Source of the DNA: Candidatus Falkowbacteria bacterium
GTDB lineage: Bacteria > Patescibacteriota > Patescibacteriia > UBA11705 > JABHMO01
DNA length: 64,000 nt
Assembly (NCBI GenBank): GCA_018674305.1
Contig: JABHAL010000001.1
Coordinates: 68,635-132,634 of the forward strand
Reading direction: 5' to 3'
The notes under the pieces were generated by a model that saw only the letters and a list, made by a program, of their open reading frames with translations, was not told where the DNA came from and did not search any database. Below are positions 32,183 through 36,228 of the stretch, piece by piece. A program made the translations under genes and the position numbers. Numbering within the stretch: the first letter of the stretch is position 1; each line of letters begins with the position of its first letter.

Positions 32183-32227
32183 GGCAGCTATGCCTGGGCT
32201 AAATCCCCAATAATAGCAGGAAATTTA
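32183..32227 (+). repeat. leader element copy 1 (ggcagctatgccTggg..ccccaataatagcaggaaat) ending at a start codon
   Basis: ~80% identical to copy 2 at 32334-32380. Confidence 0.45.
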
Positions 32228-32323
32228 ATGATAGACGATCCTTCGTCTCCCGTATTCAAGGCATTTCTGTGGTACCTGGCTTTTTCTGCAGTGCTTTTCA
32301 TCATTGGTGGCATTTTCGGTTAA
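32228..32323 (+). CDS. 31-aa hydrophobic micro-protein MIDDPSSPVFKAFLWYLAFSAVLFIIGGIFG (not in ORF track)
   Basis: ATG preceded by the conserved leader element and AGGAA; single predicted TM helix. Confidence 0.3.
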   Translation: MIDDPSSPVFKAFLWYLAFSAVLFIIGGIFG

Positions 32324-32333
32324 CTTATCTTTA

Positions 32334-32380
32334 GGCAGCTATGCCAGGGACGTATGTGCCCATAATAGCAAGGAATAATC
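32334..32380 (+). repeat. leader element copy 2 (ggcagctatgccAggg..cccataatagcaaggaataatc) ending at the ATG of 32381
   Basis: See copy 1. Confidence 0.45.
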
Positions 32381-32929
32381 ATGAAACTTATCAATGCCCT
32401 TCTCATTGCTGTTGTTCTGTTGGTTGGTCTCTCTGGTTGCGATTTCGGTGGAGAGGAAAATTCCACTGAGACTACTGAATTGTCAGAAGAGATGACAACT
32501 GTCGAGACGGTCGAAGTACCCGAGACCGAGATTTACGTCTCGGTGATGGGCTGTTTCCCCGTTCTGAAAAGTGACATAGACATGGGCGTCTACCCGACTT
32601 GGACCGGTACAGTAACGTACAAAACGCCCAGTCCTGGGCAAGCCGGCACCAAGGTAGTTAGTATCACCGGTCTTCCGGTCAACATGCACGGTTGCTTTGT
32701 TGGTCCGTATGTAAAACTGGAAGACTTGGAAATCGGGTTCTGGATTTACACCTCTGATTTCTACGAAGGACTGGATGACTACCGAATTCCGAATTTAGCG
32801 GAACTGCGGATCGCCACGTTCACAGCCGGCGTCGAAGACTATGACCTGGAAACAAAAGAGGTCAACTTCGGCGATTTGGAAGAAAATGGCTTTCCTATCT
32901 GGGACGCCAACACTTACCCGAACAGATAA
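32381..32929 (+). CDS. lipoprotein, function unknown; markedly G+C-rich
   Basis: Lipobox LVGLSGC; acidic linker; codon usage G/C-ending unlike flanks. Confidence 0.55.
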   Translation: MKLINALLIAVVLLVGLSGCDFGGEENSTETTELSEEMTTVETVEVPETEIYVSVMGCFPVLKSDIDMGVYPTWTGTVTYKTPSPGQAGTKVVSITGLPVNMHGCFVGPYVKLEDLEIGFWIYTSDFYEGLDDYRIPNLAELRIATFTAGVEDYDLETKEVNFGDLEENGFPIWDANTYPNR

Positions 32930-32941
32930 AGGAGAAATAAC

Positions 32942-33631
32942 ATGAATTGGAAACTGGCTATAATTATAGGGATCTGTTGTGGGTTCGGCATGGGTGTTGT
33001 TCTAACACTAGCTAGCTATGAGCCTAGTAAAGATTGCGTATGTGGGGAACCCAAGGCTCTCCTTATCGTCAAGTACGATAAGCTCCCCTTCGGTAATCAC
33101 GTCGGTACCCTTCACGGGACCAACTACGACCCGAAAAAGAATAAGGGAATCCCTTTCACTCAACAAGTCGAATCCATGAACAATGAACTGGTTTTTGAGA
33201 ATCTCGAACTCCCTGTCGGAACTCCGATGTGGATTCAGCTCTCGGACAACAAGGGAAAGAAACCCTCCTACGCCACGGTCTACGTAACAGGAGATCAGCC
33301 AGAGATTTACGAACTCGCGCTGAGCAACTACGACCCAGACAAAGGCTGGCAAATGGAACTTGGAATACTTCTCGAACACCCCAGGATCAAGAACAGCGGG
33401 CATGTCCTTTCAGAGGATGACAACCGTGTTCTTGGCTATCTTGGCGAGAACTACTCGATCGAGAGACATGGAGCATTGGCTACGCTTTACCGAAAAGGAC
33501 AAGTCGTTGCCAAAGAATACCATAAGTTCTACATCGACAACGGAATGGTTTTTGGTCAACTCAACGCACCGCATGAGACGATTGAGTTGGTTCTTCGACC
33601 GGAACGAATGCTGACACCACCGAACCTTTAG
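32942..33631 (+). CDS. membrane-anchored hypothetical protein; G+C-rich
   Basis: N-terminal TM; no recognised motif; same compositional island as 32381. Confidence 0.55.
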   Translation: MNWKLAIIIGICCGFGMGVVLTLASYEPSKDCVCGEPKALLIVKYDKLPFGNHVGTLHGTNYDPKKNKGIPFTQQVESMNNELVFENLELPVGTPMWIQLSDNKGKKPSYATVYVTGDQPEIYELALSNYDPDKGWQMELGILLEHPRIKNSGHVLSEDDNRVLGYLGENYSIERHGALATLYRKGQVVAKEYHKFYIDNGMVFGQLNAPHETIELVLRPERMLTPPNL

Positions 33632-33646
33632 AAATTCCTCAACAAG

Positions 33647-33684
33647 GAGCTCAACCTGAATCTAGGTTGGGCTCTTTTCTTTTT
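33647..33684 (+). terminator. intrinsic terminator (gagctcaacct..aggttgggctc + ttttcttttt)
   Basis: 3' of the G+C-rich gene pair. Confidence 0.55.
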
Positions 33685-33739
33685 AAAACAACTCAATAAA
33701 TAATTATCATGTTGAATGTTTTGTAACAACAACCCAAAT

Positions 33740-34157
33740 TGTCATGCTGAGTTTACCGAAGTACGACAATTATCATGGCTTAACTAAGACAGCCCTTCTG
33801 TATACTCAAGGTGACATGGGCTATTATAATTATTCTCATTTGCAATAGCAATCAAATCATCAATTCTACCCTCAATTAAAGCTATTTTTTTTCGTCTTGA
33901 CCAACCTTTAATCTGCTTTTCTAATGAGATAGCTTCATTTACATCATAAAAATCATTAGAATACACCAACTTAACAGGACGTCGACTATATGTATAACTT
34001 TTAGAGTTCAAACCTCTTTGATGACCAGACAATCTGGCATCCAAATCATTTGTAATTCCAGTGTAAAAACTACCATCAGAGCATTTTAAAATGTATGTGA
34101 AGTATGTTTTCATTTATAGTTGAGTAATGTCGTGCTTCGGTAAACTCAGCATGACAT
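33740..34157. mobile_element. candidate compact element: GIY-YIG nuclease gene bracketed by 29-bp inverted repeats (1 mismatch)
   Basis: Left tgtcatgctgagtttaccgaagtacgaca (33740-33768); right tgtcgtgcttcggtaaactcagcatgaca (34129-34157) is its reverse complement. Confidence 0.35.
33784..34113 (-). CDS. GIY-YIG family nuclease (standalone URI-domain protein)
   Basis: YFTYILKCSDGSFYTGITNDLDARLSGHQRG GIY-YIG signature; 109 aa. Confidence 0.75.
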   Translation of the reverse strand: MKTYFTYILKCSDGSFYTGITNDLDARLSGHQRGLNSKSYTYSRRPVKLVYSNDFYDVNEAISLEKQIKGWSRRKKIALIEGRIDDLIAIANENNYNSPCHLEYTEGLS

Positions 34158-34242
34158 TACTTTTTTTATTCACTCTTTTTTTCCTCAAAATCAGCCCCGA
34201 AGTACATGCTAACGCATGACTTCAGGGTAAACATCTTGAATA

Positions 34243-36228
34243 CTATTTTTTCTCTTCAAAATCTGCATCTTGAGTATTAGCGTCAGGCTCTGAGTTTGCT
34301 GAATCAGCACCTGAAGGATTATCAGATTCAGTGTTATTTTCTTTACTGGTTTCACTTGTCTCGCCGGTCTCGCTTGTCTTGCTGGTTTCACTTGTCTCGC
34401 TTGCCCCGTTTGTCTCACCTGCAGCTTGCTGTGCCTGATACATTGATTGACCAACTTTCATAGCGACTTCATTAACTTCTTCCAATTTTTTCTTTATAGC
34501 TTCAATATCTTCACCATCTTTAATTTTTTTCAATTCTTCAACTTTATCAGTTAACTCTTTTTTAACATCTTCTGGAACTTTATCACCTGAATCTTTCAAC
34601 ATTTTTTCTGTGCTATAACAAACAGCGTCAGCCTGATTTTTAATTTCAATCTGTTCTTTCTTTTTCTTGTCTTCCTCAGCGTGAGTTTCTGCATCTTTTT
34701 TCATTTTCTCAACTTCTTCCTTACTTAAACCAGAAGAAGCAGTAATTGTAATATTTTGCTCTTTATTGGATGCTTTATCTTTTGCCTTTACATTTAGAAT
34801 ACCATTAGCATCAATATCAAAACTGACTTCAACCTGAGGAACACCACGCGGTGCTGGCGGAAGACCATCAAGGATAAATCTACCTAAAGTTTTATTATCT
34901 TGAGCCATATCACGCTCGCCCTGCAATACATGAATCTCTACTGTACTTTGACTATCTGCAGCAGTTGAAAAAACCTGAGTTTTGGAAGTTGGAATAGTAG
35001 TATTTCTCTCAATTAATTTTGTCATTACTCCACCAAGAGTTTCTAGCCCAAGTGACAAAGGCGTTACGTCCAGCAAAAGAACATCTTTAACATCACCTTG
35101 AAGTACTCCGGCCTGAACAGCTGCACCTAGTGCTACAACTTCATCAGGATTAACTCCAACGTGTGGTTTTTTACCAAAAAATTCTTCAACCATTTTTTGT
35201 ACCAATGGCATCCTAGTCATACCACCAACCATAAGTATTTCTTCCAAATCTGAAACTTTCAGCCCAGCATCTGCTAAAGCTTTTTTACATGGTTCTAAGG
35301 TTCTTTCTACTAAAGGAGAAACTAATTCTTCTAGCTTCGCCCTGCTAACTTTTTTCACTAAGTGAGTTGGGTTCCCACTAGAATCTTGTGCAATAAAAGG
35401 TTGATTGATTTCAGTTTCCTGGGAAGTTGACAATTCAATCTTGGCTTTTTCAGCAGCTTCTTTAACTCGCTGCAAGGCCATTTGATCCTTACTTAGATCA
35501 ACGCCAGTTTCAGATTTAAACTCCTGAATTATCCAATCAATAATAACTTTATCAAAATCATCACCACCTAGATGAGTATCGCCATTAGTAGACTTTACTT
35601 CAACTGTATCATCTCCAACCTCTAAGATTGATACATCAAAAGTTCCACCACCAAGATCATAAACTGCTATTTGCTCACCTTTTTTCTTATCAAAACCATA
35701 AGCCAAAGCTGCGGCAGTTGGTTCATTAATAATTCTACGAACTTTAAGTCCAGCGATTTCACCAGCATCTTTCGTTGCTTGTCGTTGTGCGTCGTTAAAA
35801 TATGCAGGTACAGTAATTACAGCTTCATCAATTTTTTCACCTATTTTTTCTTCCGCATCAGTTTTTAATTTTTGCAGTAGCATAGCTGAAATTTCTTGTG
35901 GAGTATATTCCTTGTCTGCCATTTTAACCTTTACACCATCACCTGCTTGAACTAAGTCATAAGGGAGAGTTCCCTTATCTTTTTGAACTTCATCATCTGA
36001 AAAACGAAGTCCAATCATGCGTTTGATTGAAAACACTGTATCTTTTGGATTAGTAACTGCTTGCCTTTTGGCAGACAACCCAACTAAACGTTCACCAGTT
36101 TTGCCAATCGCAATAACTGAAGGAGTAGTCCTGTTTCCTTCTTTGTTTTCTAAAATTTTTGGCTTTCCCCCCTCCACAATAGCCATACAACTATTTGTTG
36201 TACCTAAATCGATTCCTAAGATTTTTCC
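34243..36228 (-). CDS. dnaK: chaperone DnaK (Hsp70); start at [14 protein letters not shown]
   Basis: [24 protein letters not shown] Hsp70 signatures; C-terminal ETSETSK low-complexity tail. Confidence 0.9.

What the first reader, a model, noticed from the sequence alone, without database searches (positions are those of the whole stretch)
33740..34157. GIY-YIG nuclease gene precisely bracketed by 29-bp inverted repeats
The repeat tgtcatgctgagtttaccgaagtacgaca lies 15 nt past the stop of the 109-aa GIY-YIG ORF. Its reverse complement (one mismatch) lies 15 nt before the start codon. A partial third copy (ccgaagtacatgct..gcatgac) sits at ~34196-34220. This 418-bp unit looks like a minimal mobile or homing-type element. 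Alternatively the two arms could pair in the mRNA to sequester the whole cistron. The unit sits at the edge of the G+C-rich island 32.4-33.7 kb and just 3' of dnaK.
Basis: seen in the sequence. Interest (0 to 1): 0.55.

Follow-up and report, generated by a model that had tools for sequence, protein, structure and literature searches.

The report
Ssn-like nuclease gene with cognate hairpins
A small GIY-YIG nuclease gene in a Candidatus Falkowbacteria genome is bracketed by two inverted copies of a tagged DNA hairpin; this is the layout published in 2025 for Ssn single-stranded-DNA nucleases and their target repeats, but here both the protein branch and the hairpin sequence fall outside the published definitions.

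Summary
Two 29-nt copies (1 mismatch) lie in inverted orientation 15 nt after the stop and 14 nt before the start of a 109-aa single-domain GIY-YIG ORF. Each arm is itself a hairpin: TGTCA tag, stem with tandem G.A (CTGAG/CGAAG), 5-nt loop.

The pattern is family-wide. In 80 metagenomic loci of homologues the module is about 30-fold enriched within 300 bp of the gene. The usual layout is sense copy, gene, antisense copy (23 of 29 flanked genes). Two stem pairs covary through all four Watson-Crick types. Most copies elsewhere (51 of 53 loci) have no nuclease gene nearby, so they resemble REP elements.

This matches the Ssn/SRM system (Chenal et al. 2025) and CGTC/TGTC-tagged REPs (Di Nocera et al. 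2013). The protein is a full-length homologue of Neisseria SsnA by profile comparison (99.8%). It lies in a sister clade between SsnA and UPF0213, and it fails the paper's BLAST cut-off and its SRM regex.

I found no sign of recent mobility: the unit is syntenic in a relative whose protein is 83% identical, and it has no target-site duplication. Arm-to-arm pairing is not conserved.

Verdict: a new variant of a known kind, of moderate interest. Nuclease activity on these hairpins is inferred, not tested.

The parts
33784..34113 (-). Ssn-like single-domain GIY-YIG nuclease gene (109 aa). The catalytic-type residues Y7, Y17, R27, H31 and E65 are conserved.
   Evidence: PF01541 E=6.5e-17. Invariant columns in alignment A2. 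Profile-profile match to the SsnA group: 99.8%, 90 columns. BLASTP to the NTS-associated L064 protein E=9e-18 and to N. gonorrhoeae SsnA E=6e-11.
34128..34156 (-). Upstream hairpin module in sense orientation, with the TGTCA tag on the coding strand. It ends 14 nt before the ATG.
   Evidence: The nearest upstream module is in sense orientation in 27 of 31 homologous loci.
33740..33768 (+). Downstream hairpin module in antisense orientation, with the TGTCA tag on the + strand. It lies 15 nt past the stop codon.
   Evidence: The nearest downstream module is antisense in 32 of 38 homologous loci. The orthologous copy in L002 differs by compensatory stem changes.
33787..33816 (-). Degenerate sense module (TGTCACCTTGAGTATACAGAAG...) inside the 3' end of the ORF. 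It encodes the C-terminal tail ...CHLEYTEGLS.
   Evidence: 2 mismatches to the module pattern. An intact counterpart overlaps the stop codon in L002. The C-terminal tails of homologues are translated modules. The copy no longer folds.
34195..34227 (-). It is terminator-like and built from module-like fragments; it is not a full module.
   Evidence: RNA fold -22.8 kcal/mol, z=-5.9. Sequence comparison. The terminator scan did not call it.
34173..34195 (-). Duplicate of the last ~22 nt of dnaK (GCTGATTTTGAGGAAAAAAAGAG). Together with the true dnaK end at 34243-34266 it brackets the hairpin above.
   Evidence: Read. The same duplication is present in L002.
33644..33677 (+). Intrinsic terminator of the convergent 229-aa gene. 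It marks the outer boundary of the unit on that side and is conserved in L002.
   Evidence: alignment.

Best explanation
The locus encodes an Ssn-like, single-domain GIY-YIG endonuclease together with its cognate DNA hairpin repeats. Each module has a conserved, oriented 5' tag (T/C)GTCA, a 7-bp stem closed by tandem G.A pairs (YN-CTGAG / CGAAG-N'R') and a 5-nt YYTRY loop.

By analogy with the characterised SsnA enzymes, the protein most likely binds the tag strand of the hairpin when the DNA is single-stranded, for example during replication, repair or DNA uptake. It would then cut a few nucleotides 5' of the tag, and would not act on duplex DNA or RNA. With a sense copy upstream and an antisense copy downstream, the tag faces outwards on both strands, so each strand of the unit would carry one cleavable site at its own 5' boundary.

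Shown here: the gene-hairpin association, the orientation rule, stem covariation, homology to SsnA, the shared hairpin geometry, and dispersal of orphan copies in other genomes.

Inferred: ssDNA binding and cleavage by this protein, and its biological role. That role could be modulating recombination or uptake of hairpin-bearing ssDNA, and/or maintaining the repeats, as RAYT transposases are thought to do for REPINs.
For: 1. Published system. SsnA is a 94-aa GIY-YIG site-specific ssDNA endonuclease. Its gene is flanked by oriented hairpin repeats (NTS/SRM), and it cuts upstream of the repeat on one strand only (PMC11893778).

2. Association. In 80 metagenomic loci of homologues, the strict module occurs within 300 bp in 40 loci and on both sides in 29. 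Density is 2.32/kb near the gene against 0.079/kb further away. A GTC-tagged version with 4-8-nt loops gives 27-fold enrichment, against 0.04 modules expected in shuffles.

3. Orientation. Upstream copies are sense in 27 of 31 loci, downstream copies antisense in 32 of 38, and the sense/antisense pair occurs in 23 of 29.

4. Structure. In 137 distinct modules, pairs 6-24 and 7-23 are paired in 134 and 132 copies and use all four Watson-Crick types. No shuffle out of 500 reached the observed covariation. TGTCA is conserved (A5 in 133 of 137, although the pattern left it free) yet mostly unpaired, like the NTS tag.

5. Geometry. The GTCA tag + 7-bp stem + 4-5-nt loop is the same as in gonococcal NTS, the L064 repeats and a Sphingobium SRM. 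Fully Watson-Crick versions with the same loop exist (CCCTGAA-CTTGT-TTCAGGG).

6. Homology. hhalign of the window's subfamily against the SsnA group gives 99.8% over 90 columns, and catalytic residues are conserved.

7. Same slot, canonical pair. A related Patescibacterium (L064) carries an NTS-type ssn gene, 53% identical to gonococcal SsnA, with 5-6 NTS-like repeats between dnaK and dnaJ.

8. Dispersal. 51 of 53 genome loci carrying the exact module have no GIY-YIG gene within the up to 8 kb held. Orphan copies in the sister genome lie between convergent genes.
Against: No biochemistry exists for this subfamily.

The protein is only 37% identical to gonococcal SsnA (40.8 bits). At proteome-sized database settings that gives E of about 2-4e-7, which fails the paper's 1e-10 criterion. 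The protein is about equally similar to UPF0213/YazA proteins, which sit in housekeeping operons without hairpins.

The published SRM regex finds nothing at this locus or at any related locus, although it does find true NTS copies.

The window holds only the three copies at the gene itself, so this genome may have few or no dispersed targets.

Within the subfamily, loop class does not track protein phylogeny, so I could not show co-evolution of specificity at that level.
Confidence: 0.75

Rival explanations
1. The unit is an active minimal transposon or homing element. The nuclease cuts at or near the inverted arms, or at an empty target site, and the 417-bp unit moves as a whole.
For: The layout is insertion-sequence-like, with the tags facing outwards. 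The dnaK-dnaJ slot varies among relatives: L060 has no ssn gene and L064 has an ssn gene of a different type. A duplicated dnaK 3' end next to the unit looks like an old insertion footprint. Homologues occur in many phyla.
Against: The whole unit is syntenic in a relative whose protein is 83% identical. There is no target-site duplication at the arm ends. All 23 contigs read that carry the identical protein have the same neighbours. The window holds a single gene copy. The protein has no DNA-binding domain like that of I-TevI-type enzymes. The two cleavable tags lie on opposite strands, unlike the same-strand ends of IS200/IS605. The duplicated dnaK end brackets only the small hairpin, not the unit.
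Confidence: 0.1
2. The system works like REPIN-RAYT. The nuclease is a domesticated, single-copy, vertically inherited enzyme whose main role is to spread or maintain the dispersed hairpins. This overlaps with the best explanation and differs only in which role is primary.
For: Orphan modules are dispersed and sometimes form clusters of alternating orientation resembling BIMEs (bacterial interspersed mosaic elements), as in L044 and L128. The gene is single-copy and syntenic. The gene is flanked by inverted repeats, as RAYT genes are. CGTC-tagged REPs were reported to lack a dedicated transposase (PMC3733652). The Ssn authors draw the same analogy.
Against: No strand-transfer chemistry is known for GIY-YIG enzymes, which are hydrolytic nucleases. 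No new hairpin insertion was caught between the window and its sister genome. The window itself has no dispersed copies.
Confidence: 0.2
3. The element acts at the RNA level. The two arms pair in the mRNA and sequester the cistron, or each hairpin acts as a terminator or an mRNA-stabilising element, with no direct link to the nuclease.
For: The minimum-free-energy fold of the 441-nt transcript pairs the arms in a long helix (-120.3 kcal/mol, z=-6.7). The inverted arrangement is the commonest one. The modules sit at gene ends and between convergent genes. On the + strand the 34128-34156 hairpin is followed by a T-rich stretch.
Against: Each arm folds on its own and would form first during transcription. 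In L002 the arms are not complementary to each other (4 stem differences plus a 20-nt insertion), yet each hairpin is kept through compensatory changes. An unpaired, oriented TGTCA tag is conserved, which a terminator does not need. The roughly 30-fold enrichment next to one protein family is not expected of generic terminators. The terminator scan did not call either arm. SsnA did not bind RNA.
Confidence: 0.07

Closest known systems
Ssn nucleases with NTS/SRM repeats (Chenal et al., Nat Commun 2025, PMC11893778)
   Same: A small (~95-110 aa) single-domain GIY-YIG protein. Its gene is flanked on both sides by oriented hairpin repeats carrying a 5' (C/T)GTCA tag, a 7-bp stem and a 4-5-nt loop. 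Repeats are also dispersed elsewhere in genomes. Homology is full-length at profile level (99.8%).
   Different: The protein lies in a sister clade: 37% identity to gonococcal SsnA, and about as close to UPF0213. The stem consensus is CTGAG/CGAAG with tandem G.A pairs and is missed by the published SRM regex. The host is a Patescibacterium, and neither Patescibacteria nor Bacteroidota is mentioned in the paper's main text. There is no biochemistry, and this window shows a very low copy number.
CGTC/TGTC-tagged REPs (Di Nocera, De Gregorio and Rocco, BMC Genomics 2013, PMC3733652)
   Same: Short palindromic repeats with an unpaired terminal CGTC or TGTC tag and 4-5-nt loops. They often occur as inverted dimers, lie downstream of genes or between convergent genes, and were reported in Bacteroidetes and Chlorobi among other phyla.
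   Different: That paper described 8-9-bp stems beginning with A-T pairs and found no associated enzyme. The string CTGAG does not occur in its main text, and its figures are not held. Here the stem contains G.A pairs and the A5-T25 pair is present in only 46% of copies.
REP/REPIN elements with RAYT transposases
   Same: A single-copy gene is flanked by two inverted copies of the hairpin repeat that is dispersed in the genome. Inheritance is vertical, and recognition is of hairpins in single-stranded DNA.
   Different: RAYTs are HUH tyrosine transposases and their REPs carry a GTAG tag. Here the enzyme is a GIY-YIG hydrolytic nuclease and the tag is TGTC.
UPF0213 proteins (B. subtilis YazA, E. 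coli YhbQ; PDB 1zg2, 1ywl)
   Same: Closest solved structures (E=7e-14). Similar size, and a shared N-terminal CxDGSxYxGxT and YT..RRP motif.
   Different: The UPF0213 genes examined sit inside a trmNF-yazA-rsmI operon with no flanking hairpins. They also lack the EKQIKGW motif that the window protein shares with SsnA.
GIY-YIG homing endonucleases (I-TevI type)
   Same: The same catalytic domain, and a free-standing small gene that looks selfish.
   Different: Homing enzymes carry a linker and a DNA-binding domain, cut duplex DNA at an intronless or empty allele, and are not flanked by hairpin repeats. None of these features is seen here.

Membership tests
Ssn nuclease family (Chenal et al. 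2025) | Single-domain GIY-YIG protein shorter than 150 aa | tested here: met
   109 aa. PF01541 covers residues 4-76 and there is no other domain.
Ssn nuclease family (Chenal et al. 2025) | BLASTP hit to Neisseria SsnA with E<1e-10 against a proteome and at least 75% query coverage | tested here: not met
   Tested against N. gonorrhoeae SsnA recovered from NZ_CP119140.1 (a proxy, because the N. meningitidis sequence is not held): 40.8 bits, 37% identity. E is 1.7e-7 to 3.9e-7 at database sizes of 0.3-0.7 million residues. Coverage is 81%.
Ssn nuclease family (Chenal et al. 2025) | Best CDD hit is cd10448 (GIY-YIG_unchar_3) | not testable with these tools
   No CDD or rpsblast is available. As a proxy, a neighbour-joining tree and bit scores place the subfamily between the SsnA group (mean 54 bits) and UPF0213 (mean 60 bits).
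Ssn nuclease family (Chenal et al. 2025) | Homology to SsnA over the full length | tested here: met
   hhalign of A2 against A4: probability 99.8%, E=1.9e-30, 90 aligned columns.
Ssn nuclease family (Chenal et al. 2025) | Gene flanked 5' and 3' by repeats matching the published SRM pattern HGTCWYN(0-2)YYVSBRHN(0-5)WNVSBRGN(0-2)RNCYNB | tested here: not met
   0 hits in the window and in L001-L006. As a positive control, the same regex finds 9 NTS copies at the gonococcal locus. It also misses the clearly NTS-like repeats of L064, so it is a strict test.
Ssn nuclease family (Chenal et al. 2025) | Gene flanked by oriented hairpins with a 5' GTCA-type tag abutting the stem | tested here: met
   The geometry is the same as in NTS: tag, 7-bp stem, 4-5-nt loop.
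Ssn nuclease family (Chenal et al. 2025) | Strand-specific cleavage of ssDNA next to the repeat, with no activity on dsDNA or RNA | not testable with these tools
   This needs purified protein and labelled oligonucleotides.
CGTC-tagged REP superfamily (Di Nocera et al. 2013) | Unpaired terminal CGTC or TGTC tag at one end of a short palindrome with a 4-5-nt loop | tested here: met
   Position 1 is T in 115 and C in 8 of 137 modules, and A5 is present in 133 of 137. GTC itself was fixed by my search pattern. Outer pairs form in only 36-62% of copies. The loop is 5 nt, or 6 nt in variants.
CGTC-tagged REP superfamily (Di Nocera et al. 2013) | Stem of 8-9 bp starting with complementary A-T pairs | tested here: inconclusive
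   The A5-T25 pair is present in 63 of 137 copies. The conserved stem is 7 pairs, two of which are G.A.
CGTC-tagged REP superfamily (Di Nocera et al. 2013) | Many dispersed copies per genome | tested here: inconclusive
   The 64-kb window holds only 3 copies, all at the gene. The sister genome has copies on at least 3 contigs, and other genomes have copies on up to 5 contigs. The whole genome of the window is not available.
REP-RAYT / REPIN system | HUH tyrosine transposase (RAYT) and GTAG-tagged REPs | tested here: not met
   The protein is GIY-YIG and the tag is TGTC. The resemblance is in architecture only.
GIY-YIG homing endonucleases | Additional DNA-binding domain, and location in an intron or a phage genome | tested here: not met
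   The protein has a single domain. The context is chromosomal, between dnaK and dnaJ. Phage records hold only distant homologues, at most 47% identical.
UPF0213 (YazA/YhbQ) | Housekeeping operon context (trmNF-yazA-rsmI in Bacillota) and no flanking repeats | tested here: not met
   The window gene is free-standing and flanked by hairpins. The B. subtilis and Listeria loci have neither tagged hairpins nor CTGAG cores.

The most novel reading that the evidence does not exclude
The window's protein subfamily and its G.A-containing TGTC-tagged hairpins may form a second, so far undescribed branch of hairpin-directed ssDNA nucleases. It is widespread: Bacteroidota, Patescibacteria, Cyanobacteria, Alphaproteobacteria, Nitrospirota and others. 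It sits phylogenetically between SsnA and the housekeeping UPF0213/YazA/YhbQ proteins. If so, it would have a new recognition code based on tandem sheared G.A pairs. It would also suggest that the long-uncharacterised UPF0213 proteins derive from, or share, hairpin-specific ssDNA nuclease activity. The gene-hairpin unit might behave as a domesticated system like REPIN-RAYT.
Probability: 0.35. Interest if true: 0.55.

Novelty: new variant of a known kind. Interest (0 to 1): 0.36.

Why it matters
Ssn enzymes are the only described site-specific endonucleases that cut single-stranded DNA exclusively, and each nuclease-hairpin pair is a potential tool with its own specificity. This locus points to a large sister group whose hairpin is defined here: TGTCA tag, CTGAG/CGAAG stem with tandem G.A pairs, YYTRY loop. 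The published search pattern and BLAST cut-off both miss it, so current surveys probably undercount such systems, especially in Bacteroidota and Patescibacteria.

It also gives a likely protein partner to a very common repeat. That repeat is often translated into spurious C-terminal tails such as ...AQDD... and ...LRQAQG..., which is a practical warning for genome annotation. For Patescibacteria, an ssDNA-specific nuclease lying downstream of dnaK on the same strand in three related genomes is a testable lead; a link to DNA uptake or stress is my speculation.

Tried and rejected
- Rfam (evalue mode, 33000-35000): no family near its gathering score. The only related hit is a weak match to RF02901, whose consensus contains the same core.
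- NCBIfam: no model.
- PADLOC: nothing for the nuclease or for the two G+C-rich neighbouring ORFs.
- PHROGs: only a weak generic endonuclease hit.
- Phage records: only distant homologues.
- PDB: only two uncharacterised UPF0213 structures, and no SsnA structure.
- Published SRM regex: 0 hits at this locus and its relatives. The positive control worked.
- Literature search by repeat sequence strings: only chance primer matches. Searches for YhbQ with GIY-YIG, and for GIY-YIG with 'repetitive extragenic palindromic', found nothing. The Ssn paper's supplements are not held. A 2026 preprint that mentions Ssn could not be opened.
- Target-site duplication at the arm ends: none. The flanks are ...CCCAAAT and TTACTTT....
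- Empty site: one relative (L060) lacks both the gene and the modules between dnaK and NYN-dnaJ, but it carries other genes there, so it is not a precise empty site. L062 and L063 end too close to the slot to judge.
- Hairpin-protein co-variation within the subfamily (loop class against protein identity): not significant, 306 of 2000 permutations.
- The window's own genome was apparently not in the species-representative collection, so I could not count its genome-wide copies.

Full report
**1. The observation**

The sequence is as described. TGTCATGCTGAGTTTACCGAAGTACGACA lies at 33740-33768, and its reverse complement, with one mismatch, lies at 34128-34156. These are the only two matches in the 64-kb window at up to 3 mismatches, and none was expected in shuffles. 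They bracket an ORF at 33784-34113 on the minus strand. The ORF is 109 aa and matches Pfam GIY-YIG at E=6.5e-17. The gaps are 15 nt after the stop and 14 nt before the ATG.

Three details change the picture:
- Each arm is a hairpin in its own right, with an asymmetric loop.
- A third, degenerate copy lies inside the last 30 nt of the ORF (33787-33816) and encodes its C-terminal tail.

**2. Host and context**

The identical protein is annotated in a Candidatus Falkowbacteria (Patescibacteria) assembly. The gene order is hrcA-grpE-dnaK-[this gene]-[two unknown genes on the other strand, G+C-rich]-NYN/YacP-dnaJ.

A relative (L002) has a protein 83% identical in the same place. Alignment shows that every element is orthologous: the dnaK end, a small insert bracketed by a ~22-nt duplicate of the dnaK 3' end, the sense module, the ORF ending in a module, the antisense module, and the neighbour's terminator. 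So the unit has been inherited vertically here.

Between the two genomes the downstream module changed T6-A24 to C-G and G7.T23 to C-G, which keeps the hairpin intact. The L002 upstream module also gained a 20-nt palindromic insertion in its loop. Arm-to-arm complementarity is therefore not conserved, while each hairpin is.

**3. A family-wide association**

Distant homologues (L003, L005; 62-66% identity) are flanked by the same module with different stems.

In 80 metagenomic loci fetched with a profile of the subfamily, the strict core CTGAG-N5-YGAAG lies within 300 bp of the gene in 40 loci and on both sides in 29. Its density is 2.32/kb near the gene against 0.079/kb in the more distant flanks, about 30-fold. 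A GTC-tagged pattern that allows 4-8-nt loops gives 27-fold enrichment, against 0.04 modules expected in shuffles. Many loci that lack the strict core carry 6-nt-loop variants such as CTGAG-CGCAGT-CGAAG.

The nearest upstream copy is in sense orientation in 27 of 31 loci. The nearest downstream copy is antisense in 32 of 38. The sense/antisense combination occurs in 23 of 29. The window's 'precise bracketing by inverted repeats' is therefore the standard layout of this gene family. The ORFs often run into a module, which explains C-terminal tails such as ...FDSAQDD... and ...LRQAQG....

**4. Anatomy of the module**

I collected 137 distinct copies. The consensus is T-GTCA-(C/G/T)-N-CTGAG-YYTRY-CGAAG-N'-R'.
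- A5 was left free in the search pattern but is A in 133 of 137 copies.
- Pairs 6-24 and 7-23 are paired in 134 and 132 of 137 copies. They use U-A, C-G, G-C and A-U, and no shuffle out of 500 reached the observed covariation.
- The outer TGTCA is conserved in sequence but paired in only 36-62% of copies, so it behaves as an oriented recognition tag.
- CTGAG opposite CGAAG can form C-G, T-A, G.A, A.G and G-C, that is, a helix with tandem G.A pairs. This last point is inference from known nucleic-acid structure.

In the window, as in other Patescibacterial copies, the stem extends to include the tag.

**5. Dispersal**

An exact-pattern scan of species-representative genomes found 53 loci, mostly in Bacteroidota and Patescibacteria, with some in Nitrospinaceae, Syntrophaceae and Thermodesulfobacteriota. 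Of these, 51 have no GIY-YIG homologue within the up to 8 kb held. Several genomes have copies on 2-5 contigs, sometimes as clusters of alternating orientation.

The sister genome of the window has two orphan copies, both between convergent genes. The window itself has no copy away from the gene.

**6. What is known**

Chenal et al. 2025 (PMC11893778) showed the following:
- Neisseria SsnA is a 94-aa single-domain GIY-YIG protein and a site-specific endonuclease of single-stranded DNA.
- It binds the oriented hairpin repeat NTS (CGTCATTCCCGCGMAVGCGGGAATCYRG) and cuts just upstream of it, on one strand only. It has no activity on duplex DNA or RNA.
- 42% of homologues are flanked on both sides by such 'Ssn-related motifs' (SRM).
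- The NTS-ssnA-NTS layout resembles insertion sequences and REP/RAYT systems.
- In Neisseria it modulates natural transformation.

On the DNA side, Di Nocera et al. 2013 (PMC3733652) had defined CGTC/TGTC-tagged REPs, which include the Neisseria dRS3 repeat, and noted that they lacked a dedicated enzyme.

**7. Membership tests**

I recovered gonococcal SsnA and its NTS copies from a chromosome that PLSDB files as a plasmid.

A Patescibacterial relative (L064) carries an ssn gene in the same dnaK-dnaJ slot. It is 53% identical to gonococcal SsnA and is preceded by 5-6 repeats that match the NTS consensus at 24 of 28 positions.

The window protein aligns with the L064 protein at E=9e-18. It aligns with gonococcal SsnA at only 40.8 bits, 37% identity over 78 residues. 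At proteome-sized search spaces that is E of about 2-4e-7 and fails the paper's 1e-10 cut-off.

Profile-profile comparison leaves no doubt about full-length homology (99.8%, 90 columns). All-against-all scores and a neighbour-joining tree place the window's subfamily as its own clade: mean 54 bits to the SsnA group and 60 to UPF0213/YazA, while those two groups score only 20 against each other.

The UPF0213 genes I examined sit in a trmNF-yazA-rsmI operon and have no hairpins.

The published SRM regex finds no module at this locus or its relatives, although it finds 9 NTS copies at the gonococcal locus.

A generic search for tagged hairpins shows the same geometry everywhere: GTCA tag, 7-bp stem, 4-5-nt loop. 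It also turns up intermediates with our loop but fully Watson-Crick stems, such as CCCTGAA-CTTGT-TTCAGGG and CCCCGGG-CTTGA-CCCGGGG.

CTGAG-type modules also flank homologues in Planktothrix and Sphingomonas.

I therefore do not file the locus as a member of the Ssn family as formally defined, because two defining tests were not met and CDD assignment could not be tested. I do conclude that it works like one.

**8. Mechanism**

Most likely (confidence 0.75), the protein recognises the TGTCA tag plus the stem-loop on single-stranded DNA and cuts 5' of the tag.

The sense/antisense layout puts the tag at the outer edge on each strand. Because the two cleavable sites are on opposite strands, excision of a single-strand circle in the manner of IS200/IS605 is unlikely. 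The closer analogy is a RAYT gene flanked by inverted REPs.

The biological role here is open. Candidates are control of recombination or uptake of hairpin-bearing ssDNA, as in Neisseria, or maintenance of the repeats. In three related genomes the gene lies downstream of dnaK on the same strand, so co-expression with the heat-shock operon is possible. That is inference only.

**9. Rival explanations**

- An active mobile or homing element is unlikely here. The unit is syntenic, has no target-site duplication, sits in a single context, and the protein has no DNA-binding domain.
- A long-range mRNA stem is predicted, but it is contradicted by the sister genome and by the conserved unpaired tag.
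- Generic terminators do not explain a 30-fold association with one gene family.

**10. Verdict**

The finding is real and well explained. It is an Ssn-like nuclease gene with its cognate TGTC-tagged hairpins, belonging to a sister subfamily with a hairpin class that current published definitions miss. It is a new variant of a known kind and of moderate interest.

Noticed in passing
window 34173-34266 (minus strand); L002 1336-1431: The last ~22 nt of dnaK (GCAGATTTTGAAGAGAAAAAATAG) are duplicated about 47 nt downstream (GCTGATTTTGAGGAAAAAAAGAG). The two copies bracket the 33-nt hairpin at 34195-34227. The same duplication exists in the sister genome, although the bracketed sequence has diverged. 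It looks like an old insertion footprint at the dnaK 3' end.
   Followed up: partly
window 32200-33700: A G+C-rich island (45-49% against 31-39% around it) holds two ORFs on the opposite strand: 182 aa with a lipoprotein-like N-terminus and 229 aa with a transmembrane start. Neither has a Pfam or PADLOC hit. The slot between dnaK and NYN-dnaJ differs in every relative examined (L002, L060, L064), so it is a variable region inside the heat-shock gene cluster.
   Followed up: partly
L002 1458-1512; L064 2223-2307: Hairpin loops receive nested insertions. The L002 upstream module carries a 20-nt insert containing the palindrome CCTGCCGGCAGG. One NTS-like copy in L064 carries an insert of about 57 nt between its two stem halves.
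   Followed up: no
L002 1880-1955: Five tandem 20-nt units (TGTCTGTCATRCTGTTCGTG) each carry the tag and the 5' half of the stem only. They lie between the ORF and the next full module and are absent from the window.
   Followed up: no
window 33643-33822 (-), weak Rfam hit to RF02901: The consensus of the Rfam family AaHKsRNA41 (an Aggregatibacter 'sRNA') contains GCUGAGCUUGCCGAAGCA and its inverse. That is an inverted pair of the same CTGAG/CGAAG core, so this Rfam family may be a repeat dimer of this class.
   Followed up: no
L149 (Planktothrix agardhii plasmid NZ_LR882964.1, 18347-19616): A homologue flanked by TGTCATTCTGAG-TGAAA-CGAAGAATC copies sits between a type IIL MmeI restriction-modification gene and the DISARM gene drmA, which is a defence-island context. 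PADLOC has no model for the protein.
   Followed up: partly
L145 (NZ_CP119140.1), L148 (CP090106.1) and other PLSDB records: Several records filed as plasmids in PLSDB are whole chromosomes or chromids, for example a 2.17-Mb N. gonorrhoeae record. This was useful here for recovering SsnA, but it is a caveat for plasmid statistics. Separately, several MAG records that carry the module are titled 'Gammaproteobacteria' or 'Bifidobacteriaceae'. At least CAYSUN (the L002 genome) shares gene order with the Falkowbacteria window, so that title looks wrong.
   Followed up: no
window 34334-34423: Seven tandem 9-nt units in the 3' part of dnaK encode a low-complexity ETS/KTS-rich C-terminal tail.
   Followed up: no
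window 42009-42025, 42731-42747, 46317-46333 (-): Three copies of GGTTTTGCTGAGCTAAAAGCGAAGGCTGAGGC matched a relaxed core pattern. They lack the TGTCA tag. At least two fall inside called genes (236 and 255 aa in L001), so they are probably coding repeats unrelated to the module.
   Followed up: no
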